This document shows, one piece after another, positions 22,856 through 34,325 of a stretch of 64,000 bases of DNA; within the stretch, counting starts at the first letter, position 1, and the number at the start of each line of letters is the position of its first letter. The stretch spans positions 2,144-66,143 of the forward strand of contig CAZWYS010000001.1 in the NCBI GenBank assembly GCA_964638295.1. Reading direction: 5' to 3'. Below the pieces are notes generated by a model, which had not been told where the DNA came from, made no database searches, and was given only the letters and a program-made list of their open reading frames with translations. The translations under genes and the position numbers were made by a program. Origin of the DNA: an uncultured Dehalococcoidaceae bacterium. GTDB taxonomy: Bacteria > Chloroflexota > Dehalococcoidia > Dehalococcoidales > RBG-16-60-22.

Positions 22856-22931
22856 GGGCGGTTAGCTCAGTGGTTAGAGCACCTGCTTTACACGCAGGGG
22901 GTCACTGGTTCAAGTCCAGTATCGCCCACCA
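22856..22931 (+). tRNA. tRNA-Val (anticodon TAC), CCA encoded
   Basis: Hand-folded cloverleaf: acceptor GGGCGGT/ATCGCCC, D arm GCTC/GAGC, anticodon stem CCTGC/GCAGG with loop TTTACAC, T arm ACTGG-TTCAAGT-CCAGT. Confidence 0.9.
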
Positions 22932-23012: not shown

Positions 23013-23354
23013 TTAGTATTCGTTTGATGCATCGAGCTTCCCGCGCCATATTTCCTCAAGTATTTTCAGGTCATCTATGAATTCATCTTGGCTTTGGCCT
23101 TCTTTTATCTCGATTGATTCAAGTATCTCAAAGGTAAACACCTTACCTCCGAATTCCTTCCAATCTTCTTGCAACTTGGGCTGAATACAAGAGCCAGTAG
23201 AGACCGAGAAATTAAAGCGGTTTTGCATCGCCTTAAGGTCCTGGGCACGGCCTAGGAGATACATCTCATTTAGACTATTGGTTATCTTATATATACCACC
23301 ACTGAATTTGCGCTGCTTGTATTCATTAACGAGTTTTTTCCTTCTGTCCATCAA
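23013..23354 (-). CDS. GIY-YIG nuclease-domain protein (small, stand-alone)
   Basis: 113 aa. GGIYKITN..NEMYLLGRAQDL fits the GIY-(10-11)-YIG spacing. Sits immediately after the tRNA in an AT-richer stretch. Confidence 0.55.
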   Translation of the reverse strand: MMDRRKKLVNEYKQRKFSGGIYKITNSLNEMYLLGRAQDLKAMQNRFNFSVSTGSCIQPKLQEDWKEFGGKVFTFEILESIEIKEGQSQDEFIDDLKILEEIWRGKLDASNEY

Positions 23355-23982: not shown

Positions 23983-24024
23983 GTTACAAAAGCGTTAAAA
24001 AAGAGTTACAAAACGATTACAAAT
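23983..24024 (+). repeat. four direct GTTACAAAA-like units at an exact 11-nt period
   Basis: GTTACAAAA (23983), GTTAAAAAA (23994), GTTACAAAA (24005), GATTACAAA (24015). Lies 44-85 nt upstream of the -35 box at 24068. Confidence 0.4.
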
Positions 24025-24067
24025 TCCAGTGCAGTCGCCAGACATGGCACCAGAGGGCTACTACGAT

Positions 24068-24096
24068 TTGACAAGCCAGGCAGCGCTACTTATAAT
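24068..24096 (+). promoter_or_regulatory. consensus sigma-70-type promoter for the pilin-like cluster
   Basis: Perfect TTGACA (24068-24073), 17-nt spacer, perfect TATAAT (24091-24096), about 65 nt upstream of the first ORF. Confidence 0.55.
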
Positions 24097-24161
24097 TCGA
24101 GGCGTGTCCTATATGACATCTATACTGATGTCTAATAAGATTACTCCCCAGTAAGCAATGC

Positions 24162-24596
24162 ATGCCGGCGGGGTTGGGAGGTAGTGACACCGTGACATCG
24201 GTGGTAAGAGGAAGACGTAATTCCCTTAGAGAACAAAGCGGCATAGGTCTTATGGAAACGCTGGTGGCGCTGGCGATTCTAGGCGTCATCACCGTTACCT
24301 TTCTTAGTGGCTTGAATACGGCTTCCAAAGCGGCCTTCACCGCCGATGAGCAGACCACCGCCGAAAGTCTGGCGCAAAGTCAGATGGAATGGGCCAAACG
24401 GGCTACCTATGTAGAAGAGGCCAGCCAATATTCCCCGGCATCAATTCCCGATGGTGGTGATTATGTCAATTACTCCGTGGCAATTACCGCTGAGCCTTTA
24501 CGTGACCCGGATGATGGTATCCAGAAGATAACCGTAACGGTTAGCCATGCTGATGGAACAGTAATTGAACTGGAGAACTACAAGAGACAGCGATGA
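24162..24596 (+). CDS. type IV pilin-like / pseudopilin protein (prepilin-type N-terminal motif)
   Basis: Q-S-G|IGLMETLVALAILGVITV: Gly at -1, Glu at +5, then a hydrophobic helix. The true start may be GTG 24192 or 24201. The stop overlaps the next start (ATGA). Confidence 0.7.
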   Translation: MPAGLGGSDTVTSVVRGRRNSLREQSGIGLMETLVALAILGVITVTFLSGLNTASKAAFTADEQTTAESLAQSQMEWAKRATYVEEASQYSPASIPDGGDYVNYSVAITAEPLRDPDDGIQKITVTVSHADGTVIELENYKRQR

Positions 24597-27500
24597 AGCA
24601 AAGGGAAAGAGGTTTTACCATTCTTGAGCTTTTGGCGGTTACAGCCATCATAGCTCTGGTAGCGAATGCGGCGCTGCTGACCACATTTCATGTGCTCAGG
24701 AACAGTGATCGCAATGCGAACCAGATGACCGCCACAAGTCAGGTGCAGAACGCCGGCTACTGGATTAGCCTTGATGCCCAGAAAGCCCAGAGCGTGGAAG
24801 CGGCGTCAGCCAACGAAACAGTCGTTACCGTCTCCTGGGACCACAGCGAAGGCGGCACTCTGGAACCAGACGACAAGCTCTACTTTTCCTTCTCGGACGA
24901 CAGCGGTAGCACCTGGAGCAGCAATTTTATCGCTTTCAGTGACGACATCGGCGCTACGCCAGAACCTTTCAGCTACGTTATCCCCAATAAATATCTGACC
25001 ACGGACTTCAAGATGCGGTTCTTCGTAGCCTTTGATGCGAGTGAACGCGCCTACATTGATAATATCACGGTCGCCAATGTCACCGAGGAACTATTTTGCG
25101 ATGACTGTGGCGATATGGACAACTGGGTTAACGGCGCCAACTGGTACCCTTACTATACCTCGGAATGGGGATGGGAATTTAGAGGCGATGGTGCCGGGGG
25201 AGGACTCTGGTATAACGAAGACTGGCAATGCCGGAGGGAGATAACCATTGACCACACCAAGGTTGAGGATGTCGCCAGCCCAGAGACCACCTACGCCGAC
25301 TTCCCGGTCCTGGTGTACGCCACCGGGCTTTCGGGGGCCAAAGCCGATGGCGCCGATATCCGCTTCACGGAATCGGACGGCATCACCGAGTTGCCGAGAG
25401 AAATAGAGAGCTATTCCAGCGGCACCCTGTATGCCTGGGTAAAGGTCAATTTAACCAAAGACAGCGGTGATTCTGAAGACGATGTCATCTATATGTATTA
25501 CGGCAACGACGCGGCTACCGAGCCAGACCTGGATTCCCCCTACGGCGCCCAGAATGTCTGGGAGACTAATTACAAGGGAGTCTGGCATTTGAGCGAAGAC
25601 CCATCAGGGACAGTCCCACCAGCCGACTGGTATGATGGAGAGTGGGAATGCCGGAGGGAGATAACCATTGACCACACCAAGGTTGAGGATGTCGCCGACC
25701 CAGAGGCTACCTACGACGAATTCCCGGTCCTGGTGTGCGCCACCGGGCTTTCGGGGGTCAAAGCCGATGGCGCCGATATCCGCTTCACGGAATCGGACGG
25801 CATCACCGAGCTGTCGAGAGAAATAGAGAGCTATGCCGACGGCACCCTGTATGCCTGGGTAAAGGTCACTCTAACCAAAGACAGCAGTGATTCTGAAGAC
25901 GATTTATTTTACATGTACTACAGCAACGACGCGGCTACCGAGCCAGCCCCGGATTCCACCTACGGCGCCCAGAATGTCTGGGAGGCTAATTACAAGGGAG
26001 TCTGGCATTTGAGCGAAGACCCTACCGGCCCGCATGGCTGGTATAACCAGGACTGGCAGTACTGCAAGAAGATAACCATTGACCATGACAAAGTTGAAGC
26101 TGATTTGACTGATTTCCCGGTCTTGGTTTCCATTACCGATAGCGATTTAAGAGACCAGGCTAAATCTGACGGTTCTGATATCGTATTTACTTCTTCTGAC
26201 GGCACTACGAAATTAAAAAGAGAAATAGAAAGCTATGATGATTCAACCGGAACCCTAGTTGCCTGGGTTAAGACAGGTTTATCAGGCAGTTCTGACACGG
26301 AGCTCTACATTTATTACGGAAATTCCGGAGCTTCAGAGACAAATGATACCGATACCTGGGATACCAGCTTCAAGGGAGTCTGGCATTTACAAGAGACAAC
26401 CGGCGGTGCCAACGCCATAGAAGATTCAACATCCAACAGCAACCATGGAACCGACCAAGGAAGCCCTACTCTCGGAGCAACTGGAAAGGTTGACGGGAGC
26501 GTAGGTTTCGATGGGACTAACGACTTCATTGATGCGGGGGACCCTGCCAGCGGAAGCCTGGATTTCGGAACAGGCGCATTCACTGCATCTGCATGGATAA
26601 AAACAACGGCCACAACAGGAACGGGCGGTTCCAGAGATGATATTATTGCAAAAGGTGACCCTACATCTAGTGGTTATGCCATGAACTCACAAAATAATAA
26701 GGCAACATTCATGGTCGGAAACAATCTTGAACTTGCAGGAACAACAAGCATAAACAATGGAGCCTGGCATTACATTGTTGGAACAAGGCTTGCAGGCGGC
26801 ACAGTCTATGTCTATGTTGATGGCGTGAGTGAGAATACTGGGTCTAATACAGAAAGTGTATCTACAGCAACCAACTTCATTTTTGGAAAGCACGGCACAA
26901 AGAGCGAATCTTATTTCCCCGGCACCATAGACGAGGTCCGCGTCTCCAACACCGCAAGAAGTGCGGAATGGATTAAGACTTCTCACAATAATCAGAATGC
27001 CCCTTCTAATTTCTATAGCCTGGGAACCGAGCAGACGACAGCCGCGGAAGAAGGGATAAAAGACAGCACGTCAAATAATAATGACGGCGCCACTGGTGGC
27101 GCGATGACTTCTGGTGACCAGGTAGCGGGGCAAATTAACGGTTCCCTGGATTTTGACGGCACCGATGACTACATAAATATCCCCCGGGACAGTACCCTTG
27201 AGCCCACCACTGCGGTCACGGCCAGCACCTGGTTCTACTGGCATGACAATAATGCCAGTTACTATGGAAAAATCCTAGCCAAAACCACTAGCTCGGACAC
27301 AGCTCCCTGGATTTCCTATGTTCTTGAGCAGAATGCCGGCAACCAGCAAATCGTGGCCGCTATTAACGTCAATGGTACCGGGCATTCCACATCGGCTCAG
27401 TCTTTAACCGAAAACGAATGGCATCACCTGGTGCTGACCTGGAGTTCCGGGGACAATATCCGTTTCTACATTGACGGAACACAGGCAACAAGCACCAGTT

Positions 27501-29356
27501 CTACATATTCAGGCAGTATTAACTACTATGATGTGCCGTTCCGAATTGGCTTTTCCAGCTGGGGTGAATCCGACACCCAGATTGACGGCGTCATTGACGA
27601 GGTCCGTGTCTCCAATACCGCAAGAAGTGCGGAATGGATTAAGACTTCTCACACTAATCAGAGTGTCCCTTCTAATTTCTACAGCCTGGGAACCGAGGAG
27701 ACGGCAGCCGCGGAAGAAGGGATAAAAGACAGCACGTCAAATAATAATGACGGCGCCGCTTGCGGCGACATGAGCTCCGGCGACCAGGTAGCGGGTAAAA
27801 TTAACGGCTCTCTGAATTTTGACGGGGTTGATGAATATATTGACTGTGATAATGATGCGAGTTTGCAGATAACGGGCACCATGACTATTGAAGCCTGGTG
27901 TAAGCCAGACGTAACCGGAACATACGCTGGTATAGCCGGGAAATTGCGCTACGCTTCTGGGGATTATGCCGGTTACGCCTTAGCCAAACACGATACCAAT
28001 AAATTCCGCTTCGTGGTAGCCAGTAGTGACACTAGCGAAGTTATTGACAGCGACTCTACTTATGCAGAGACTGACTGGCATCACATCGTTGGCGTGCACC
28101 GGGGCACCACATTCTATCTGTATGTTGATGGAACCGAGCAGACCGCCACCGGAACAAGGGCAATAGAGGAAAGCAACCAGTATTTTCACATCGGAAGGCA
28201 ATATGCGGACTATGATGACAGATGGTGGTATGGCAAAATAGATGAAGTCCGTATCTCAAACACAGATAGAAGCGCCAAATGGATTAAAACCGAATACAAC
28301 AACCACAATGACCCTGCCAACTTCTGCAACCTGGGAACCGAGGAGACGACATCCGTGGAAGGGGGCATAAAAGACAGCACGTCAAATAATAATGACGGCA
28401 CCGCTGGTGGCGCAATGACTTCCGGTGACCAGGTAGCGGGGCAAATTAACGGTTCCCTGGATTTTGACGGCACCGATGACAGGATTACCATACCAAACTC
28501 AAGCAGCCTGGATGTGGGCAGTACCCTTACGGCTGAAGCGTGGGTTAAATGGGAGAGCGGTGGTACCCCGGGATGCTACGCCAGAATACTGGAACGAAAA
28601 ACCAACTGGCAGGCTAACAACGGCTGGACAATTAATATAGAATCGGGTGATGACAACGACCTCGAAATCCTGGGGAGCAGCAGTATAGTCGTCCAGACAC
28701 ACAGCATTGTGCCTTCCTGGTCAGCCGGAGGCTGGCACCATATCGTGGTAGCTTTTGATGGCAATACGGTCTACCCGTATGCCGATGGCGTAGCATTTAG
28801 CAGTGGTGGGATTACCACTGTCGTTGATAATGACAATAACCTGTTAATAGGGGAATACGGGGGAGGGGGTGACAACTGGAACGGCAAAATAGATGAAGTC
28901 CGCATCTCAGATATAACCAGAAGCGACGTCTGGATTAAGACCAGCTATAACAACCAGAGCGACCCGGCCAGTTTTAGTAATCTGGGAACTGAGGAGGCAG
29001 TGGAGGGCTGGGACCCGAGCGATAGATACCTCACCATGAAGGATAGCCTGGACTTGAGCTCCTACCTGACCGCCGGAGGGTTCCCCCTCATCCTCACCTG
29101 GACAAGCTGGGACAGTTCCGGCGGCACCGAACACGAGGCTATTTACAACATAGTCGGAGGAGTGCTGAGGCGAAGCTACTCGGTTGATGGCGGCGCCCCG
29201 ACGATAACCTTGATAGCCAAGCACATAGACGCCTATAACACCATTTGCCAGTTTGCCAGCGGCAGGCTTACCTTGACGGTAGCGGCAACCGTGGGGAGTG
29301 GCCCAACCGCCAGCAACGAAACGAGAGAATTCCAAGTGCTCACCATGCCGGACTAG
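24593..29356 (+). CDS. giant prepilin-type protein (1587 aa) with 3 DUF2341-like and 4 LamG/concanavalin-like modules
   Basis: N-terminus MKQRERG|FTILELLAVTAIIALV is a canonical prepilin cleavage/methylation motif. Three W(Q/E)CRREITIDH..FPVLV..DGADIRF..LPREIESY..LYAWVKV units. Four modules each ending IDEVR(V/I)S..RS..WIKT..NNQ. Confidence 0.85.
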   Translation: MKQRERGFTILELLAVTAIIALVANAALLTTFHVLRNSDRNANQMTATSQVQNAGYWISLDAQKAQSVEAASANETVVTVSWDHSEGGTLEPDDKLYFSFSDDSGSTWSSNFIAFSDDIGATPEPFSYVIPNKYLTTDFKMRFFVAFDASERAYIDNITVANVTEELFCDDCGDMDNWVNGANWYPYYTSEWGWEFRGDGAGGGLWYNEDWQCRREITIDHTKVEDVASPETTYADFPVLVYATGLSGAKADGADIRFTESDGITELPREIESYSSGTLYAWVKVNLTKDSGDSEDDVIYMYYGNDAATEPDLDSPYGAQNVWETNYKGVWHLSEDPSGTVPPADWYDGEWECRREITIDHTKVEDVADPEATYDEFPVLVCATGLSGVKADGADIRFTESDGITELSREIESYADGTLYAWVKVTLTKDSSDSEDDLFYMYYSNDAATEPAPDSTYGAQNVWEANYKGVWHLSEDPTGPHGWYNQDWQYCKKITIDHDKVEADLTDFPVLVSITDSDLRDQAKSDGSDIVFTSSDGTTKLKREIESYDDSTGTLVAWVKTGLSGSSDTELYIYYGNSGASETNDTDTWDTSFKGVWHLQETTGGANAIEDSTSNSNHGTDQGSPTLGATGKVDGSVGFDGTNDFIDAGDPASGSLDFGTGAFTASAWIKTTATTGTGGSRDDIIAKGDPTSSGYAMNSQNNKATFMVGNNLELAGTTSINNGAWHYIVGTRLAGGTVYVYVDGVSENTGSNTESVSTATNFIFGKHGTKSESYFPGTIDEVRVSNTARSAEWIKTSHNNQNAPSNFYSLGTEQTTAAEEGIKDSTSNNNDGATGGAMTSGDQVAGQINGSLDFDGTDDYINIPRDSTLEPTTAVTASTWFYWHDNNASYYGKILAKTTSSDTAPWISYVLEQNAGNQQIVAAINVNGTGHSTSAQSLTENEWHHLVLTWSSGDNIRFYIDGTQATSTSSTYSGSINYYDVPFRIGFSSWGESDTQIDGVIDEVRVSNTARSAEWIKTSHTNQSVPSNFYSLGTEETAAAEEGIKDSTSNNNDGAACGDMSSGDQVAGKINGSLNFDGVDEYIDCDNDASLQITGTMTIEAWCKPDVTGTYAGIAGKLRYASGDYAGYALAKHDTNKFRFVVASSDTSEVIDSDSTYAETDWHHIVGVHRGTTFYLYVDGTEQTATGTRAIEESNQYFHIGRQYADYDDRWWYGKIDEVRISNTDRSAKWIKTEYNNHNDPANFCNLGTEETTSVEGGIKDSTSNNNDGTAGGAMTSGDQVAGQINGSLDFDGTDDRITIPNSSSLDVGSTLTAEAWVKWESGGTPGCYARILERKTNWQANNGWTINIESGDDNDLEILGSSSIVVQTHSIVPSWSAGGWHHIVVAFDGNTVYPYADGVAFSSGGITTVVDNDNNLLIGEYGGGGDNWNGKIDEVRISDITRSDVWIKTSYNNQSDPASFSNLGTEEAVEGWDPSDRYLTMKDSLDLSSYLTAGGFPLILTWTSWDSSGGTEHEAIYNIVGGVLRRSYSVDGGAPTITLIAKHIDAYNTICQFASGRLTLTVAATVGSGPTASNETREFQVLTMPD
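25223..26023 (+). repeat. intragenic tandem duplication, two ~380-nt copies at a 420-nt (140-codon) period
   Basis: 25223-25603 versus 25643-26023 align without gaps. By manual count about 29 mismatches in about 380 nt. Confidence 0.85.
26930..28480 (+). repeat. three 240-nt near-identical LamG-junction repeats (26930-27169, 27596-27835, 28241-28480)
   Basis: Each spans ..IDEVRVSNTARSAEWIKT..GTEE..GIKDSTSNNNDG..GQINGSLDFDG. The core ataaaagacagcacgtcaaataataatgacggc is identical in all three, while the sequence between the copies is far more divergent. Confidence 0.8.
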
Positions 29357-29389
29357 CCGTCATTAAAGTTGTCAAGCGGGTAAGAGCTA

Positions 29390-32300
29390 ATGAAAAGGAT
29401 GTTAGATAAATTACTCAGAAAGGAAAAAGGGCAGGGGCTGGTGATAGTCCTCTGTCTTGTGGCGATAGGCGGGTTGATGATAGTCCCACTTTTGAACCAC
29501 ATGCACACCGGGCTCAGCTCCGGTCAAATCTATCGGGAGAGGATGGCACTTAAATATGCCGCTGAAGCCGGATTGCAGGACGGCATGTGGAAAACAGACA
29601 ACGATGCAGTACCGCTAGAACCTTACGACTACGCGACGGAGTACAACTATTCCCTGACTGAAGAGATTAATGACAAGTCGGTAAATGTTACCATAAAGCA
29701 AATCTGGCCCCTGAACGGCCTGGAGAGCGATGCGAATGGCACAACTCCAGCCAACGCGCTTTTGATAACAGGGGGCATCATCAGTGACTCGGGAGAATAC
29801 GAAGTCTGCCTCAGCTATGCTGACCCCGAGGTGGAATTACCAATAGACAAAGTAGCGGTGTGGCTACCCCCTGGCTTTGCATATGTCCCCAGTTCCAGTT
29901 CCGGTATTACCACCGACGACCCAACCGAGACCGAGTGGAACGGGGGTAAGACTCTAGAGTGGGATTTTGACCCGGCGATAAACTTCCTCGACCTACCAGA
30001 GCAGGAGCCACCAGAGCCCCTTCCCGGGGGCATGGAACCGGCAGTTGAGCACCCGGTAGAGCGAAGTTTGAATTTCAACGTAACGCCGGCAGGAGAGCTG
30101 GCTACCGGCAGCTACTCGTGGGTAAGAACAACCAACAGCGCCCGTTACCTGTCCTGGGAAAGCGGCATCACCATTTACCAGATTAACGCCACCGCCAGCG
30201 ATGACACTACGGGTAAGCACACCACGACTGAAAGTTATACTTACGTTAGCACGGGGGTGGTCGAGGGATGGCTGGACACCGGTGGCAGCCTCATGACGGG
30301 AGACTATCGAGCCGACGGCAATACCCTGATGAAAGACTACAATCAGGACCGGAGACGAGAAACGCTTCTCACGGATAGCAGCGCCACCATCAACGACATC
30401 CCATCGGATGCCGAGGTGGTCTTTGCTTACCTTTACTGGTCAGCCTGGAAAGACTACAGCGGTTCAATGGAGGCGGACAAGGTCTGCACATTCAGTATTG
30501 CGCCCCCTGACGAAGACTTAATCTTACGACCGAATGCTGTCGGCACATATTCCCAGTGCGACCCGTATTACGATTACCCTAACTACCGCTGCGTGGATGA
30601 GGAGACGTCCGATGGTAACTCTACCTATGTCAGGACAAGCAGTGGCGCCACAGAGATAGATACCTATAATATTGATAACCACGGTTCAGTCAGCGATACC
30701 GTAAACAGTATCACCATACATATAAGGTCCAGAGGCGACGGAGATTACCAATACCAGCATTCCGCTGAGACTGTCATCAGAACCCATGACACTGACTATT
30801 TTGACAGCTACATGTTACTGCCGTATTCTTACACCGGTATCTCAACAACCTACACGGTCAATCCCTATACCGGTTCAGCCTGGACCTGGGATGAAATTGA
30901 TGCCCTGGAAATCGGCGTAAGGCAAATTGATGGAGGCAATGGTCGTGCTTACACCACCCAGGTCTACGCTGGGGTTAACCACGGAGAGACCGAATATATG
31001 ACCACAATCTTGAGACCAAATGCCACCGGTGATGAGACCAGTATATCGGGGCAGTACCCGGACGAGGGAGCACACTGGGATAAGGTAAGCGAGGAAACGG
31101 CTGACGACTTTACCAGCTACGTGATAGCCCAAGGAGCAGCACCCGCCAACTGGTATGACCAAAACTGGGAATCCCGGGTACCGATAAACATCAACCACAC
31201 CAATGTTGCCGATGTCGCCGACCCAGCGACTGCCTACGCCAACCTCCCGGTCCTGGTGTACGCTACAGGGCTGTCCGGCATCAAAGCCGATGGCGCCGAT
31301 ATCCGCTTTACGGCATCGGACGGCACCACCGAGCTGCCGAGAGAAATAGAGCGCTATGCCGACGGCACCCTGTATGCCTGGGTAAAGGTCAATTTAACCA
31401 AAGACAGCGGTGATTCCAGCGACGATTTATTCTACATGTACTACGGCAATGACGCGGCTACCGAACCAGCCCCGGATTCCACCTACGGTGCCGAGAATGT
31501 CTGGAACAGCGGCTTCAAGATGGTGCAACACCTGAAAGACGAAACCATATCCAGCACCGCCGACAGCACCTCAAATGACAACGATGGGGCAAAAACAGCC
31601 GCTGCCTCACCGACAGAAACGGACGGGAAGATAAGCAAAGCGCAGGACTTTGACGGAAGCGATGATTTGATAAACGTTGCGGACAATGCCAGCCTGGATA
31701 TTACCAGCGCAATTACGGTTGAAGCGTGGGTAAAAGACGATATTTACACCTGGTCCGGGGAGCTACTCACCAACCCGGGGTTTGAGGATGGAAATTTCAA
31801 TGGCTGGACTACCCACGGGTGGCAATGGGAAGTCGGCCCTGAGGGTCCGTATGGGTCAGCCGGTACCCATACCGGCAGTTACTGTGCTTTCCGAGACAAT
31901 AATAGTGATCAAGGTGATTATATTCAACAGGATGCGGATGTAAGTGCCTACACGACTCAGATAGATGCAGGCACGGCACTATGCAAGGCTGGCGGGTGGA
32001 CAGTATCAGAACGCTACCAGGAGAACCCGACGGATGACCGATGCAAGATAATAATTCAGTATCTGAATTCAGCAAAGGAATTAATATCAACCCCCCTTGA
32101 CACGGGATGGCTGAATGAACCAAGCTGGACGGAACACAAGATAGTGGACGACGTGATTCCGGTGGGTACCAGATATGTTCGCATATGGACAACTACCGAA
32201 GAGGAAGATTGGGAGGACCCTTCTGGCAGCTTGGATGATTTTTCGGTACAAGTCGGGCTGCCAAGGAGCTACGTTGATAAAGGGACAGATGCTTATTCCT

Positions 32301-33661
32301 TGCAACCAGCGGCAAGTGGCACAACACTTAAGGGATATATCAGTGGCAATGTCATAACCGCTTCGGTTACCAACCCCACCGACTGGCACCATTGCGTCAT
32401 GACCTTTGATGGCACAGACCAGAAACTGTTTATTGACGGTGCCCTAGAGAATACCCTAAGCCCCGGTGGCGCAATTGTCACGAATGCACAGGACGTAGAG
32501 CTCGGGAGCAGTTTTGACGGCAAACTGGATGAAGCCCGCATCTCAGACACCGCCAGAAGCGCCGAGTGGATTGAAACCGAGTACAACAATCAGAGTGCCC
32601 CGTCCAATTTCTGCGTCCTGGGAGATGAGGAGTCAGCGACAACACCGCTCTACGAAAGGGATTTGTACGGGATTGAGAACCACACGATAAGCCCGGAACC
32701 CATACTCAAGGTTGCCGTTTACTTTCGTTTTTCCGGTGACACACAAGAGCCGGATGACTATACCGCTTACGCCAAAGCCGCTCTCAAGACTCACGGAGTG
32801 GTTTACCTGGGAAGCGAAGAAACCCAAGTGGGCCAGGGGTTCATCACCAACTCATACGAATGGCCAGTAAATCCCTACACCGGCGAAACCTGGACCTGGG
32901 ATGAAGTTGATGACCTGCAAGCGGGGCTTGAACTTAAAGGTGAACTTGGCGCCGAAGGTTACTGCACCCAGGTATATATTGAAGTCTCTTATTACCCGTT
33001 CCTACAAGAAGAGATAACTGCCGACAAATGGTGGCTTATTGAGAATCAAGCCCCCGACTATGCCTACTCCTGCTTCAAAGACGTGACCTACCTGGTGAAG
33101 CCAGTGGCGCCTCAGGGCAACGCAACCTACAATGTGGGTGAGGTGGAGGGAAGTACCGGGTCTGAGCTCTCTTACGCCGGCTGGTCCCTGATTATCATTT
33201 ATTCCAGCATCTCCGAACAGGGCCACCAGTTCTTCCTCTATGACCAGCTAATGTTCGCCGGCACCAACGCCTCGGGCAGCTTTACCATTGAAGGCTTCCA
33301 AGCCCCACCGAATGCCAGCGCCGAGCTAACCTGCTTCGTCGGTGAGGGAGATGACTGGTATAACGGTGATTACCTGCGGTTCAACGATACTTATCTGTCT
33401 GACGCCACCAATCCTGAGGATGACGTCTGGAACAGTAAAAGCAGTGGTCTTGAGGGACAGCTCATTGAAGGGGTGGATATTGATACCTTTGACGTCTCGA
33501 GCCCGATAATCAGTCAGGGAGATACTTCGGCTGAGTTAACGTTTACCACCGCCCAGGACAACTGGAACCTTATATATCTCATTTTAGCCTTTCGCAGCGA
33601 CCTCCCCGTGCTGACGCCGAGCGGCACCGGCATCTTTTCCTGGGGTATAGGTGGGGGGTAA
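29390..33661 (+). CDS. giant PilX-N-like membrane-anchored pilus-associated protein (1423 aa) with nested DUF2341 / LamG / CBM-like insertions
   Basis: N-terminus EKGQGLVIVLCLVAIGGLMIVPLL..(about 25 aa)..ALKYAAEAGLQDG fits the PilX N-terminal pattern (G..L-hydrophobic helix ... A..AAEAGl). Internal DUF2341-like, LamG-like (..LDEARISDTARSAEWIETEYNNQ) and NPGFEDGNFNGW carbohydrate-binding-like segments. Confidence 0.8.
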   Translation: MKRMLDKLLRKEKGQGLVIVLCLVAIGGLMIVPLLNHMHTGLSSGQIYRERMALKYAAEAGLQDGMWKTDNDAVPLEPYDYATEYNYSLTEEINDKSVNVTIKQIWPLNGLESDANGTTPANALLITGGIISDSGEYEVCLSYADPEVELPIDKVAVWLPPGFAYVPSSSSGITTDDPTETEWNGGKTLEWDFDPAINFLDLPEQEPPEPLPGGMEPAVEHPVERSLNFNVTPAGELATGSYSWVRTTNSARYLSWESGITIYQINATASDDTTGKHTTTESYTYVSTGVVEGWLDTGGSLMTGDYRADGNTLMKDYNQDRRRETLLTDSSATINDIPSDAEVVFAYLYWSAWKDYSGSMEADKVCTFSIAPPDEDLILRPNAVGTYSQCDPYYDYPNYRCVDEETSDGNSTYVRTSSGATEIDTYNIDNHGSVSDTVNSITIHIRSRGDGDYQYQHSAETVIRTHDTDYFDSYMLLPYSYTGISTTYTVNPYTGSAWTWDEIDALEIGVRQIDGGNGRAYTTQVYAGVNHGETEYMTTILRPNATGDETSISGQYPDEGAHWDKVSEETADDFTSYVIAQGAAPANWYDQNWESRVPININHTNVADVADPATAYANLPVLVYATGLSGIKADGADIRFTASDGTTELPREIERYADGTLYAWVKVNLTKDSGDSSDDLFYMYYGNDAATEPAPDSTYGAENVWNSGFKMVQHLKDETISSTADSTSNDNDGAKTAAASPTETDGKISKAQDFDGSDDLINVADNASLDITSAITVEAWVKDDIYTWSGELLTNPGFEDGNFNGWTTHGWQWEVGPEGPYGSAGTHTGSYCAFRDNNSDQGDYIQQDADVSAYTTQIDAGTALCKAGGWTVSERYQENPTDDRCKIIIQYLNSAKELISTPLDTGWLNEPSWTEHKIVDDVIPVGTRYVRIWTTTEEEDWEDPSGSLDDFSVQVGLPRSYVDKGTDAYSLQPAASGTTLKGYISGNVITASVTNPTDWHHCVMTFDGTDQKLFIDGALENTLSPGGAIVTNAQDVELGSSFDGKLDEARISDTARSAEWIETEYNNQSAPSNFCVLGDEESATTPLYERDLYGIENHTISPEPILKVAVYFRFSGDTQEPDDYTAYAKAALKTHGVVYLGSEETQVGQGFITNSYEWPVNPYTGETWTWDEVDDLQAGLELKGELGAEGYCTQVYIEVSYYPFLQEEITADKWWLIENQAPDYAYSCFKDVTYLVKPVAPQGNATYNVGEVEGSTGSELSYAGWSLIIIYSSISEQGHQFFLYDQLMFAGTNASGSFTIEGFQAPPNASAELTCFVGEGDDWYNGDYLRFNDTYLSDATNPEDDVWNSKSSGLEGQLIEGVDIDTFDVSSPIISQGDTSAELTFTTAQDNWNLIYLILAFRSDLPVLTPSGTGIFSWGIGGG
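31166..31505 (+). repeat. third copy of the DUF2341-encoding DNA repeat, in the neighbouring gene
   Basis: Shares long exact runs with the copies at 25223 and 25643. For example, ggcaccctgtatgcctgggtaaaggtcaatttaaccaaagacagcggtgattc is identical to copy 1, and ccagccccggattccacctacgg is identical to copy 2. Confidence 0.8.
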
Positions 33662-33868
33662 TCGCTAAGGGGCGACAGCTTCAAGCGACAAGAGCCAGCC
33701 AGTTATCTTAAAACTATCGTGAGTGATAGGATAGACAGCAAAGTTATCAAGTGTATAGTGATAGCTTTCAATACTCCTAGAGCTTGCCCCTTGTGGACGG
33801 GATATGATAAACTTCTCCAGTAACCCAGTTGTGAACTTTGGTGAACTTTTTCCCTCTGTTTGACTTGC

Positions 33869-33945
33869 GGCGCATTCGTCTAGGGGTTTAGGACACCTCC
33901 CTCTCAAGGAGGAGATCACCGGTTCGAATCCGGTATGCGCTACCA
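33869..33945 (+). tRNA. tRNA-Glu (anticodon CTC), CCA encoded
   Basis: Hand-folded: acceptor GGCGCAT/ATGCGCT (G1-U72 wobble), TC-GTC-TAGGGGTTTAG-GAC D arm typical of tRNA-Glu, anticodon stem CCTCC/GGAGG with loop CTCTCAA, T arm ACCGG-TTCGAAT-CCGGT. Confidence 0.85.
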
Positions 33946-33946
33946 A
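33925..33946 (+). repeat. 22-nt direct repeat, copy 1 (3' end of tRNA-Glu)
   Basis: cgaatccggtatgcgctaccaa, identical to 42177-42198. Confidence 0.9.
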
Positions 33947-34325
33947 AGCCCAAATAACCCCCTGTTTTGAAGCTAATTTAGGTAATTCTTTGTCCGTTAT
34001 GGTTCTGGCGTTATGCTTAGTATTTAGAGATATATCCATGGAGGACTGTAGAAAGGGGTATCCTTGTTACGGCTGACATAGACAAGTTAGCCGTAACGTT
34101 TGTTACAAGGCTACTGAGGCTAACAAGTTGTTATCCTCCGCTCGCATTCATATCTAACGGTTGTTATGAATCCGATGTTTTCAAGCGTAACGAATTGTCT
34201 CGCGTGATAGGCATAACAGCAGTTATCAAGCGTGACATGCCTAACGACCTAGAAGCTGCACTCGTGGTTATGCCTAGTAGTCGTAGCAATGTCCGTTATA
34301 GTGGCTAAATATTGAGTCTATCGAC

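What the first reader, a model, noticed from the sequence alone, without database searches (positions are those of the whole stretch)
31166..31505. DUF2341-encoding cassette in the neighbouring gene is a mosaic of the two upstream copies, suggesting gene conversion between adjacent genes
- The single DUF2341-like module of the 1423-aa gene shares long exact nucleotide runs with the tandem copies 5.5-6 kb upstream, but alternately with one or the other.
- ggcaccctgtatgcctgggtaaaggtcaatttaaccaaagacagcggtgattc is identical to copy 1 (copy 2 differs there).
- The following gatttatt.tacatgtactac and ccagccccggattccacctacgg match copy 2 (copy 1 differs there).
- Flanking protein sequence in the two genes is otherwise unrelated.
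- This patchwork is what inter-gene conversion or cassette exchange leaves behind. It implies ongoing concerted evolution or shuffling of adhesin modules within the cluster.
Basis: seen in the sequence. Interest (0 to 1): 0.6.

Follow-up and report, generated by a model that had tools for sequence, protein, structure and literature searches.

The report
Copied pilus adhesin module, not mosaic
The three similar DNA stretches are real, but the "patchwork" is what an ordinary family tree of three copies produces: one module of a pilus-associated gene was copied into the neighbouring gene and then duplicated there, which is ordinary module shuffling in a surface-adhesin gene pair.

Summary
The mosaic inference fails. 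In the 356-nt core, gene 2's module (G) has 37 private sites, copy 1 has 18 and copy 2 has 13. The copy-1-private and copy-2-private sites interleave at random (15 runs against 16.1 expected, P=0.41). 3SEQ-like, PHI and GENECONV-like tests are not significant. Outgroup modules from other Dehalococcoidales give a clean tree: (c1,c2) 99% and (G,c1,c2) 91% bootstrap. Synonymous divergence is clock-like: 0.10, then 0.22-0.25, then 0.64-0.75 to orthologues.

G lies in its native orthologous context. Gene 1 is a type IV minor pilin with a ~1,270-aa insert of three DUF2341 and four LamG modules, absent from four relatives' orthologues. The best reading is a one-off ~365-nt copy from gene 2 into gene 1, followed by a 420-nt tandem duplication and independent divergence.

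Module flux is real at other levels. Copy 3 is a different module type, closest to other lineages' gene 2. A 99.3%-identical strain contig carries an extra module. A relative has a single unit at the same insertion site. This is a modular pilin/adhesin locus of a known kind, of modest interest.

The parts
24162..24596 (+). Small minor-pilin-like gene (144 aa), first gene of the three-gene cluster
   Evidence: N_methyl and ComGE hits in Pfam, and ComGE/GspI/PilV hits in NCBIfam, all below cut-off. 75% aa identical to the 133-aa pilin gene in the L002 pilus cluster.
24593..29356 (+). Gene 1: modular type IV minor pilin (1587 aa). Class III signal peptide MKQRERG|FTILE, three DUF2341 modules and four LamG modules.
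   Evidence: TIGR02532 IV_pilin_GFxxxE scores 20.8 against a cut-off of 16.3. Pfam gives DUF2341 x3 and Laminin_G_3 x4. The N-terminal ~204 aa and C-terminal ~113 aa align with the 311-459-aa orthologues.
25205..29014 (+). Insert of about 3.8 kb (about 1,270 aa) inside gene 1, between ...EFRGDGAGGG and DRYLTM...
   Evidence: Absent from the gene 1 orthologues of L001, L005, L006 and L002. L030 has a single DUF2341-LamG unit at the same site.
25207..25626 (+). Copy 1 (c1): type-A DUF2341 unit. Core is 25207-25561; the tail plus linker runs to 25626.
   Evidence: 84.8% identical to 31150-31504 and 91% to copy 2. A tandem repeat of period 420 was detected.
25627..26037 (+). Copy 2 (c2): type-A DUF2341 unit. 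Its homology to gene 2 starts 10 nt upstream, at 25617.
   Evidence: 86.0% over 365 nt to 31140-31504. Carries 8 of the 16 SNPs against strain contig L027.
26038..26398 (+). Copy 3 (c3): type-B DUF2341 module, of different origin
   Evidence: 57-62% nt identity to G, c1 and c2, but 85.5-87% to the gene 2 module of L002/L010. dS is 0.37 to L002 and saturated against type A.
26915..29000 (+). Array of LamG (Laminin_G_3) repeats in gene 1, period 645-666 nt
   Evidence: Repeat families D2 and D3 at 83-88% identity. Pfam finds four stretches.
29390..33661 (+). Gene 2: 1423-aa pilus-cluster protein with one DUF2341 and one LamG
   Evidence: Pfam hits. Full-length orthologues at 54-59% aa identity lie inside T2SSE/T2SSF/PilM/prepilin-peptidase clusters.
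31140..31504 (+). G: gene 2's DUF2341 module (type A), the segment shared with c1 and c2. This is the finding itself.
   Evidence: blastn extents. Gene 2 31000-31530 is colinear with orthologues L001, L005 and L013 at 77%. Predicted as a beta-sandwich with pLDDT 78.
31178..31267 (+). Cluster of G-lineage-specific, mostly amino-acid-changing substitutions (RREITIDHTKVE to RVPININHTNVA)
   Evidence: 13 of the 15 sites polarised as G-derived fall here. This cluster accounts for the 5'/3' heterogeneity of G-c1/c2 distances.
31505..31549 (+). Tail after the module, where similarity to c1 and c2 stops abruptly
   Evidence: 16/33 nt identical between G and c1 here, against 27/33 between c1 and c3. 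G's 'MVQH' tail resembles L001.
32513..32636 (+). Conserved C-terminal LamG strand, similar to gene 1's LamG repeats
   Evidence: 75-77% nt identity to 28226-28345 and 28881-29000. Comparably conserved in orthologues: gene 1's LamG repeats match L005/L013 at 76-77% over 105 nt, while gene 2's own segment has only a broader 70-72% alignment to orthologues.

Best explanation
The locus is a three-gene minor-pilin cluster of a Dehalococcoidales genome. It holds a small GspI/ComGE-like pilin, a modular minor pilin (gene 1) and a large DUF2341-LamG protein (gene 2).

Gene 2's DUF2341 module (31140-31504) is the vertically inherited, orthologous copy. After this lineage separated from the sampled relatives, a segment of about 365 nt was copied non-reciprocally into an existing DUF2341/LamG insert in the adjacent gene 1. 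The tail behind the copy stayed gene-1-like. The new unit was then duplicated in tandem (420 nt), giving copies 1 and 2.

Since then the three copies have diverged independently, with many amino-acid changes. That includes a burst in gene 2's first 40 codons. Each place where gene 2 'matches copy 1 but not copy 2' is a private substitution in copy 2, and the reverse holds for copy 1. There is no mosaic.

By analogy with modular pilins, the DUF2341 beta-sandwich and LamG lectin-like modules are displayed on a type IV pilus for adhesion. Changes in module number and type alter what the pilus binds.

- **Shown:** the tree, the borders, the absence of breakpoints, the insert and the strain-level copy-number difference.
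- **Inferred:** the direction of copying, the recombination mechanism and the adhesive function.
For: **No mosaic signal**
- Site patterns are 37 G-private, 18 c1-private and 13 c2-private, with no three-way sites. The runs test gives P=0.41.
- 3SEQ-like tests give P=0.80, 0.57 and 0.22 for the three possible recombinant children. PHI gives P=0.2-0.6. No GENECONV-like fragment survives correction.
- Outgroups show G ancestral at 18 of the 31 c1-versus-c2 sites. Only 5 sites are apparent shared-derived states, and they are scattered.

**Tree-like history**
- NJ bootstrap is 98.8% for (c1,c2) and 90.8% for (G,c1,c2).
- dS is 0.10 for c1-c2, 0.22-0.25 for G to c1/c2 and 0.64-0.75 to orthologues. 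4-fold-site identity is 1.00, 0.82-0.84 and 0.61-0.64 respectively.

**Direction and context**
- Gene 2 is colinear with its orthologues through the module.
- Four gene 1 orthologues lack any DUF2341.
- The borders at 31140 and 31504 are sharp, and the c1/c2 tail resembles c3 rather than G.
- G-derived changes cluster at 31178-31267 and raise G's distance to L005 as well.

**Independent assembly**
- L027 reproduces the c1-c2-c3 order at 99.3% identity.

**Function by context**
- TIGR02532 passes its cut-off in gene 1.
- Gene 2 orthologues lie in type IV pilus clusters.
- Modular pilins with lectin modules are documented (PMC9934059). DUF2341 proteins in archaeal type IV pilus loci were proposed as tip adhesins (PMC4858521).
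Against: - The direction of copying cannot be proven from three copies. L030 shows that some gene 1 alleles carry a DUF2341-LamG unit at the same site, so gene 1's insert may be old.
- A few multi-nucleotide homoplasies remain: 31358-31362 (SS/SG/AG/AD) and 31427-31435 (VI/LF/EI/EF). In addition, 3 of the 5 c2 SNPs against L027 where L027 carries copy 1's base have the window allele equal to G. These could be micro-conversion tracts of 40 nt or less.
- The G-c1 run of 18 concordant polymorphic sites is nominally unusual (P=0.022).
- The alignment is short (357 nt), so all tests have limited power.
- No expression, pilus or binding data exist.
- The pilus machinery is not within the 64-kb window.
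Confidence: 0.72

Rival explanations
1. Gene 2's module is a patchwork assembled by gene conversion, alternately from copy 1 and copy 2, and reflects ongoing concerted evolution between the adjacent genes.
For: - Exact shared runs with copy 1 (53 nt) and with copy 2 (21-23 nt) exist.
- The G-c1 concordant run has nominal P=0.022.
- One site (31392) has a derived state shared by G and c1, and four sites (31169, 31220, 31362, 31427) have one shared by G and c2.
Against: - The runs test gives P=0.41 and the longest run is 3 sites. The 3SEQ-like test gives P=0.80 and PHI is not significant.
- 37 sites separate G from both copies and are spread over the whole core.
- The 53-nt run encodes GTLYAWVKV.LTKDS, the most conserved stretch in all type-A modules. 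G differs from the orthologue L005 at only 3 positions within that run.
- dS of 0.22-0.25 between G and either copy means no recent homogenisation.
Confidence: 0.04
2. Reverse or reciprocal direction. A type-A module that already sat in gene 1 overwrote gene 2's module (gene 1 to gene 2 conversion), or both were homogenised once, so the G/c1c2 split dates a conversion event rather than a duplication.
For: - Sharp borders at 31140 and 31504 are what a conversion tract leaves.
- Gene 1 alleles with a DUF2341-LamG unit exist in relatives (L030), so gene 1 could have held a module early.
- Three copies alone cannot give the direction.
Against: - G is of the same type as the modules of orthologues L001, L005 and L013, and is colinear with them across the 5' border.
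- The only other module in gene 1 (c3), and L030's unit, are type-B-like.
- A type-A donor in gene 1 would itself have had to come from gene 2.
Confidence: 0.14
3. A tree-like history overall, with a few very short conversion tracts (40 nt or less) among G, c1 and c2 at hypervariable loops.
For: - Adjacent multi-nucleotide homoplasies occur at 31358-31362 and 31427-31435.
- Between strains 99.3% identical, c2 carries 8 of the 16 SNPs (P=0.0035). At 25646, 25835 and 25839 the window allele equals G while L027's allele equals c1.
Against: - The intervening diagnostic sites (25638, 25642, 25838) are not co-converted, so contiguous tracts do not fit well.
- The same dipeptides vary among all orthologues (SS, SG, AG, AD), so recurrent mutation under diversifying selection is an adequate explanation.
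- PHI is not significant.
Confidence: 0.2
4. The similarity reflects only strong purifying selection on an old domain, with no recent DNA exchange, or it is an assembly artefact of a metagenome-assembled genome.
For: - The module is the best-conserved part of gene 2 between orthologues (74-82% aa, against 54-63% in the N-terminus).
- 4-fold-site identity to orthologues is somewhat higher inside the module than outside it (0.63 against 0.48, P about 0.05).
Against: - Synonymous sites are far from saturated between the window copies (dS 0.10-0.25), and clearly lower than to orthologues (0.64-0.75).
- Type A against type B is saturated, so there is no general synonymous constraint.
- An independent metagenome contig reproduces c1-c2-c3 at 99.3% identity.
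Confidence: 0.03

Closest known systems
Modular type IV pilins (Streptococcus sanguinis PilB and PilC; PMC8179133, PMC9934059)
   Same: A pilin moiety with a class III signal peptide carries extra functional modules. [quoted passage not shown] Gene 1 here has the GFxxxE pilin motif plus DUF2341 beta-sandwich and LamG (ConA-like superfamily) modules.
   Different: The modules here sit inside the pilin, between conserved N- and C-terminal parts, rather than being grafted at the C-terminus. There are seven modules rather than one or two. The host is a Dehalococcoidales genome. No structure or binding data exist. No sequence relationship to PilC was tested.
DUF2341-containing large proteins of type IV pilus loci (archaeal loci, arCOG03508; PMC4858521)
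   Same: These are large DUF2341 proteins encoded within type IV pilus gene clusters and proposed as tip adhesins by analogy with PilY1. Gene 2's orthologues lie between T2SSF/minor pilins and PilM in such clusters.
   Different: These are bacterial (Dehalococcoidales). Gene 2's N- and C-terminal regions have no Pfam or NCBIfam family. The role at the tip is inferred, not tested.
Tandem-repeat surface adhesins with copy-number variation by unequal recombination (for example Rib/alpha-C-type repeat proteins; from general knowledge, not checked in the literature here)
   Same: Domain-sized tandem repeats sit in a surface protein. A 99.3%-identical strain carries one more module, joined at a conserved repeat tail.
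   Different: The repeats here are diverged (91% for c1-c2, 83-88% for the LamG repeats) rather than near-identical, and they are of mixed origin (types A and B).
Pilin antigenic variation by gene conversion from silent cassettes (Neisseria pilE/pilS; from general knowledge)
   Different: There are no silent, promoterless cassettes. All copies lie in intact long ORFs. No mosaic tracts were found. Divergence between copies is 8-16%, not recent.

Membership tests
Type IV pilin (prepilin-type N-terminal cleavage/methylation domain) | Class III signal peptide: short basic leader, G|F cleavage site, Glu at +5, hydrophobic helix | tested here: met
   Gene 1 reads MKQRERG|FTILELLAVTAIIALVA. TIGR02532 scores 20.8 bits against a cut-off of 16.3. 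Pfam N_methyl scores 19.9 against 21.2, just below cut-off.
Type IV pilin (prepilin-type N-terminal cleavage/methylation domain) | The same motif in the 144-aa gene and in gene 2 | tested here: inconclusive
   The 144-aa gene has N_methyl, ComGE, GspI and PilV hits, all below cut-off. Gene 2 has a hydrophobic N-terminus (KGQG|LVIVL) but no Glu5 and no family hit.
Type IV pilus gene cluster | Co-location with the assembly ATPase, platform protein, PilM and prepilin peptidase | tested here: inconclusive
   Met for orthologues L002 and L006/L007 (T2SSE, T2SSF, PilM, N_methyl pilins), with Peptidase_A24 seen only in L002. Not met in the window: tblastn with L002's machinery proteins finds only the small pilin. 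L001 and L005 share the window's machinery-less three-gene arrangement.
DUF2341 (PF10102) | Pfam gathering score reached | tested here: met
   Gene 2 scores 31.5 bits against 23.4. Gene 1 scores 85.3 bits in three stretches.
Laminin_G_3 / ConA-like lectin superfamily (PF13385) | Pfam gathering score reached | tested here: met
   Gene 1 scores 289.6 bits in four stretches. Gene 2 scores 50.4 bits. The cut-off is 27.6.
Gene-conversion mosaic (recombinant of two parental copies) | Informative sites supporting each parent are clustered into tracts, giving breakpoints | tested here: not met
   Runs test P=0.41. 3SEQ-like max-descent test P=0.80. PHI P=0.2-0.6, and the GENECONV-like test is not significant after correction.
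Gene-conversion mosaic (recombinant of two parental copies) | The recombinant shares derived states with each parent in its tract | tested here: not met
   With outgroups L001 and L005, G is ancestral at 18 of 31 sites. There are only 4 G+c2 and 1 G+c1 apparent shared-derived sites, scattered and interleaved with 11 c1+c2 shared-derived sites.
Concerted evolution of paralogous modules | Paralogues within a genome are more alike than orthologues, although the duplication predates speciation | tested here: not met
   The within-genome copies are more alike (dS 0.1-0.25 against 0.64-0.75). However, four gene 1 orthologues lack the modules, so a recent duplication explains the pattern without homogenisation.
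Cassette-type pilin variation system (pilE/pilS-like) | Silent partial cassettes that donate to one expressed locus | tested here: not met
   All four DUF2341 copies lie in two intact ORFs. No further copies were found in the 10-kb region searched, 24000-34000.

The most novel reading that the evidence does not exclude
In Dehalococcoidales, the DUF2341-LamG units of two adjacent pilus genes behave as exchangeable cassettes.
- They exist in two deeply diverged types (A and B) that do not track the rest of the gene.
- They move between the minor pilin (gene 1) and the large tip-like protein (gene 2), and between lineages. c3 is 87% nt identical to another lineage's gene 2 module. L030's gene 1 LamG is 80% nt identical to L006's gene 2 LamG.
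- They change copy number between strains 99.3% identical.

This would be a previously undescribed modular diversification system for pilus adhesins in an uncultured, environmentally important group.
Probability: 0.35. Interest if true: 0.5.

Novelty: new member of a known kind. Interest (0 to 1): 0.27.

Why it matters
The specific claim, a conversion mosaic in gene 2, does not hold. Three-sequence 'alternating match' patterns should not be flagged as recombination without an outgroup or a clustering test.

What remains is a clear example of how a type IV minor pilin grows into a 1,587-aa multi-module protein. It captures a module from its neighbour, captures another type from elsewhere, and amplifies both in tandem, with copy number still varying among near-identical strains.

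That is useful for annotating DUF2341/LamG giants in Dehalococcoidales pilus loci, and for thinking about adhesion in these uncultured organisms. It follows known principles of modular pilins and repeat-adhesin evolution.

Tried and rejected
1. **Conversion tract in the 3' 225 nt.** G-c1/c2 distances are heterogeneous (23% in the 5' part against 9-12% in the 3' part, P=0.0065 for c1 and 0.00025 for c2). I rejected a tract because G-L005 is heterogeneous in the same way (P=0.028) while c1-L005 is uniform. In addition, 13 of the 15 G-derived changes sit in 31178-31267. A G-lineage burst is enough to explain the pattern.
2. **Reduced synonymous divergence of the module between species, as a sign of cross-species cassette exchange.** The Nei-Gojobori profile suggested it. 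At 4-fold sites of conserved codons the excess is marginal (0.63 against 0.48, P about 0.05), so I did not pursue it.
3. **Chimeric c1/c2 (type-A core plus c3-like tail).** The tail is closest to c3 (27/33 nt), but L008 and L006 score 24/33. I kept this as an inference only.
4. **Whole-protein scan of genome contigs.** It found nothing. The alignment-based scan did work.
5. **Exact look-ups of the window's own proteins.** All failed, so the source record is unnamed.
6. **Fold search of the module against the PDB.** No hit below E=0.1, only weak filamin/Ig-like beta-sandwiches.
7. **Rfam scan and ORF listing on both strands.** Rfam found nothing but two tRNAs across 22-35 kb, and only short chance ORFs overlap the module on the minus strand.
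Full report
**1. What is at the coordinates**

The finding lies in a 1423-aa ORF (29390-33661, +), called gene 2 here. Immediately upstream is a 1587-aa ORF (24593-29356, +), gene 1.
- Pfam finds one DUF2341 and one Laminin_G_3 domain in gene 2.
- In gene 1 it finds three DUF2341 stretches, four Laminin_G_3 stretches and a prepilin N-terminal methylation motif.
- The repeat search finds a 300-nt family at 25207 (copy 1, c1), 25627 (copy 2, c2; 91%) and 31150 (G; 84%). A more distant third upstream copy starts at 26038 (c3).
- blastn puts the shared segment at 31140-31504 against c2 (86.0% over 365 nt) and 31150-31504 against c1 (84.8% over 355 nt).

Two side statements are wrong. There are three upstream modules, not two. 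The rest of the two proteins is related through the LamG domains, at 39-51% aa identity.

**2. Is G a mosaic of c1 and c2?**

The core 31150-31505 aligns without gaps.
- 288 sites are invariant, 37 are private to G, 18 are private to c1 and 13 are private to c2. None differs three ways.
- With three sequences, any site where c1 and c2 differ must show G agreeing with one of them. Alternation as such carries no information; only clustering would.
- Reading 1 for a c1-private site and 2 for a c2-private site, the order along the core is 1222111212221121112221112112111. That is 15 runs against 16.1 +/- 2.6 expected (P=0.41), and the longest run is 3 sites.
- A 3SEQ-style maximum-descent permutation test gives P=0.80 for G as child of c1 and c2, and P=0.57 and 0.22 for the other two triplets.
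- On six type-A modules, PHI gives P=0.20-0.59. A GENECONV-like longest-concordant-run test gives P=0.022 for G-c1 and 0.21 for G-c2, before correction for 15 pairs. Several unrelated pairs, such as G-L005 at 0.010, score similarly, which points to rate heterogeneity rather than pair-specific exchange.
- The 53-nt exact run encodes GTLYAWVKV.LTKDS, the most conserved part of every type-A module. G differs from the orthologue L005 at only 3 positions within it.

**3. Outgroups**

Gene 2 has full-length orthologues at 54-59% aa identity in other Dehalococcoidales metagenome contigs and MAGs: P0002 to P0005, on loci L001 to L007 and L010. Their DUF2341 modules fall into two sharply distinct types.
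- Type A comprises window G, c1, c2, L001, L005 (identical to L013) and L008.
- Type B comprises window c3, L002/L010, L009 and L006.

With L001 and L005 as outgroups, G carries the ancestral base at 18 of the 31 c1-versus-c2 sites. Eight sites are ambiguous. Only five look like derived states shared with one copy (four with c2, one with c1), and these are scattered.

Neighbour-joining gives (c1,c2) 98.8% and (G,c1,c2) 90.8% bootstrap. Synonymous distances are clock-like:

| Comparison | dS |
|---|---|
| c1 to c2 | 0.10 |
| G to c1 / c2 | 0.25 / 0.22 |
| window copies to L001 / L005 | 0.64-0.75 |
| L001 to L005 | 0.50 |
| type A to type B | saturated |

Identity at 4-fold sites of conserved codons is 42/42 for c1-c2, 37/45 for G-c1 and 38/45 for G-c2, against 0.61-0.64 to orthologues.

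There are no breakpoints. But synonymous sites are not saturated, so the copies do share recent DNA ancestry.

**4. Heterogeneity along the module**

G differs from c1/c2 at 30-31 of 132 sites in the 5' part and at 20-26 of 225 sites in the 3' part (P=0.0065 for c1 and 0.00025 for c2). I considered a conversion tract confined to the 3' part and rejected it.
- Of the 15 sites polarised as G-derived, 13 lie in 31178-31267, and they are mostly non-synonymous (RREITIDHTKVE becomes RVPININHTNVA).
- The 11 c1c2-derived sites are spread over the whole core.
- G-L005 shows the same 5' excess, whereas c1-L005 is uniform.
- A burst on the G branch is sufficient.

dN/dS is about 0.6-0.9 among the window copies, against roughly 0.2 to orthologues. 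That fits relaxed or diversifying selection after duplication.

**5. Which copy is the original?**

- Gene 2 from 31000 to about 31530 is colinear with the orthologues (77% over 520-530 nt), running across the 5' border of the c1/c2 similarity. G is of the same type as its orthologous modules.
- Gene 1 is the orthologue of a 311-459-aa pilin-like protein. Its first ~204 and last ~113 residues align with the orthologues.
- Residues ~205-1474 (about nt 25205-29014; three DUF2341 and four LamG modules) are an insert absent from L001, L005, L006 and L002.
- The similarity to G stops abruptly at the Trp codon 31503-31505. Beyond it, the c1/c2 tail (NYKGVWHL) is closest to c3's tail (27/33 nt) and farthest from G's (16/33). 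G's tail (KMVQHL) resembles L001's.
- c2's 5' linker keeps about 10 nt of homology to G's upstream flank.

The most economical history has three steps. A ~365-nt segment of gene 2 was copied into gene 1's existing module array. The unit was then duplicated in tandem, with period 420. The copies then diverged. The direction is inferred, not proven.

**6. Module flux at other levels**

- c3 is type B. It is 57-62% nt identical to G, c1 and c2, but 85.5-87% identical to the gene 2 module of L002/L010 (dS 0.37). Similarity to L006 extends 477 nt, into the start of LamG. c3 therefore has a different source from c1 and c2.
- A metagenome contig, L027, is 99.3% identical to window 24099-26389. It confirms the c1-c2-c3 order in an independent assembly.
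- After c3, L027 continues into a further type-B module. This extra module has a novel linker, and its core differs from L027's own c3 at 3 of about 290 nt. This is copy-number variation between near-identical strains. L027 ends inside the repeat, so the junction needs read-level confirmation.
- Eight of the 16 SNPs between L027 and the window fall in c2 (P=0.0035). Three of them make the window's c2 equal to G. The intervening diagnostic sites are not co-converted, and the affected dipeptide (SS/SG/AG/AD) is hypervariable in all orthologues. Micro-conversion is therefore possible but not shown.
- L030 carries a 654-aa gene 1 orthologue with exactly one DUF2341-LamG unit at the same insertion site. 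Its LamG is 80% nt identical over 695 nt to the gene 2 LamG of L006/L007, but only 42% aa identical to its own gene 2.
- L029's gene 2 orthologue has two type-B modules.
- Across gene 2 orthologues the N-terminus is about equally distant between lineages (54-63% aa). The module is 74-82% identical within a type and 47-57% between types. The LamG region is hypervariable at 28-39%.

**7. What the genes are**

- Gene 1 passes the TIGR02532 pilin-motif cut-off (MKQRERG|FTILE).
- The preceding 144-aa gene is ComGE/GspI/PilV-like, but below cut-offs.
- Gene 2 has no family hit outside DUF2341 and LamG.
- In L002 and L006/L007 the orthologous trio lies between T2SSE/T2SSF and PilM, pilins and a PilS/R-like two-component system, with a prepilin peptidase also present in L002.
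- In the window, as in L001 and L005, the trio stands alone. Here it is bracketed by tRNA-Val and tRNA-Glu.
- AlphaFold predicts the module as a beta-sandwich (pLDDT 78). It has no PDB match below E=0.1.

By analogy with the modular pilins PilB and PilC of S. sanguinis (PilC is a pilin plus an Ig-like module plus a ConA-like lectin; PMC9934059), and with the DUF2341 proteins of archaeal pilus loci (PMC4858521), the modules are most likely pilus-displayed adhesive domains. That is inference.

**8. Verdict**

The strings are real, but the mosaic reading is a three-taxon artefact. What is there is a modular minor-pilin/adhesin gene pair in which one module was copied from gene 2 into gene 1 and then amplified. 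Independent evidence shows module gain, loss and exchange across strains and lineages. This is a new member of known kinds (modular pilins, repeat adhesins). Interest is modest.

Noticed in passing
L027:2258-2605 (compare window 25978-26389): A metagenome contig 99.3% identical to the window carries a fourth DUF2341 module, a second type-B copy, after c3. It is joined through a novel linker (KEDPTELHG). Its core differs from the contig's own c3 at only 3 of about 290 nt. The contig ends inside the repeat.
   Followed up: partly
L030:905-2869: A relative's gene 1 orthologue (654 aa) has exactly one DUF2341-LamG unit at the same insertion site as the window's array. Its LamG is 80% nt identical over 695 nt to the gene 2 LamG of a different lineage (L006/L007), but only 42% aa identical to its own gene 2.
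   Followed up: partly
window 26038-26398; L002:11910-12271: Across Dehalococcoidales gene 2 orthologues the DUF2341 module is dimorphic, with types A and B at 47-57% aa identity and saturated dS. The N-termini of the same proteins are about equally distant between lineages. The window's gene 1 carries both types.
   Followed up: partly
window 31740-32320 (approx.): Gene 2 has an insertion of about 190 aa inside its LamG region (NPGFEDGNFNGWTTHGWQWEVG...) that is absent from four orthologues. It also lacks a third 'NPxTGxxWTWxE' domain of about 117 aa, and a segment of about 20-25 aa, that the orthologues have.
   Followed up: no
window 22856-22931 and 33869-33945: tRNA-Val and tRNA-Glu genes bracket the three-gene pilin cluster. 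The flanking genes differ from those around the orthologous trios in L001 and L005.
   Followed up: no
window 23013-23354 (-): A 113-aa ORF next to tRNA-Val has a weak GIY-YIG / group I intron endonuclease hit (TIGR01453, 31 bits against a cut-off of 56). It may be a remnant homing-endonuclease-like gene.
   Followed up: no
window 25207-25981: c1 and c2 show no difference at 42 four-fold sites of conserved codons, yet have about 23 non-synonymous differences (dN/dS about 0.9). Half of the SNPs against strain contig L027 fall in c2. This suggests diversifying or relaxed selection on the newest copies.
   Followed up: partly
window 30857-30910 and 32867-32920: There is an internal repeat within gene 2 (83% over 54 nt), encoding VNPYTG..WTWDE(I/V)D.L. 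It marks a repeated domain of unknown function that varies in number among orthologues.
   Followed up: no
L029:75-4763: A gene 2 orthologue in another contig has two type-B DUF2341 modules. It also has a duplicated domain of roughly 190 aa of unknown function (VQNNNRVLYVFVTMNN...). Internal module duplication is therefore not unique to the window.
   Followed up: no
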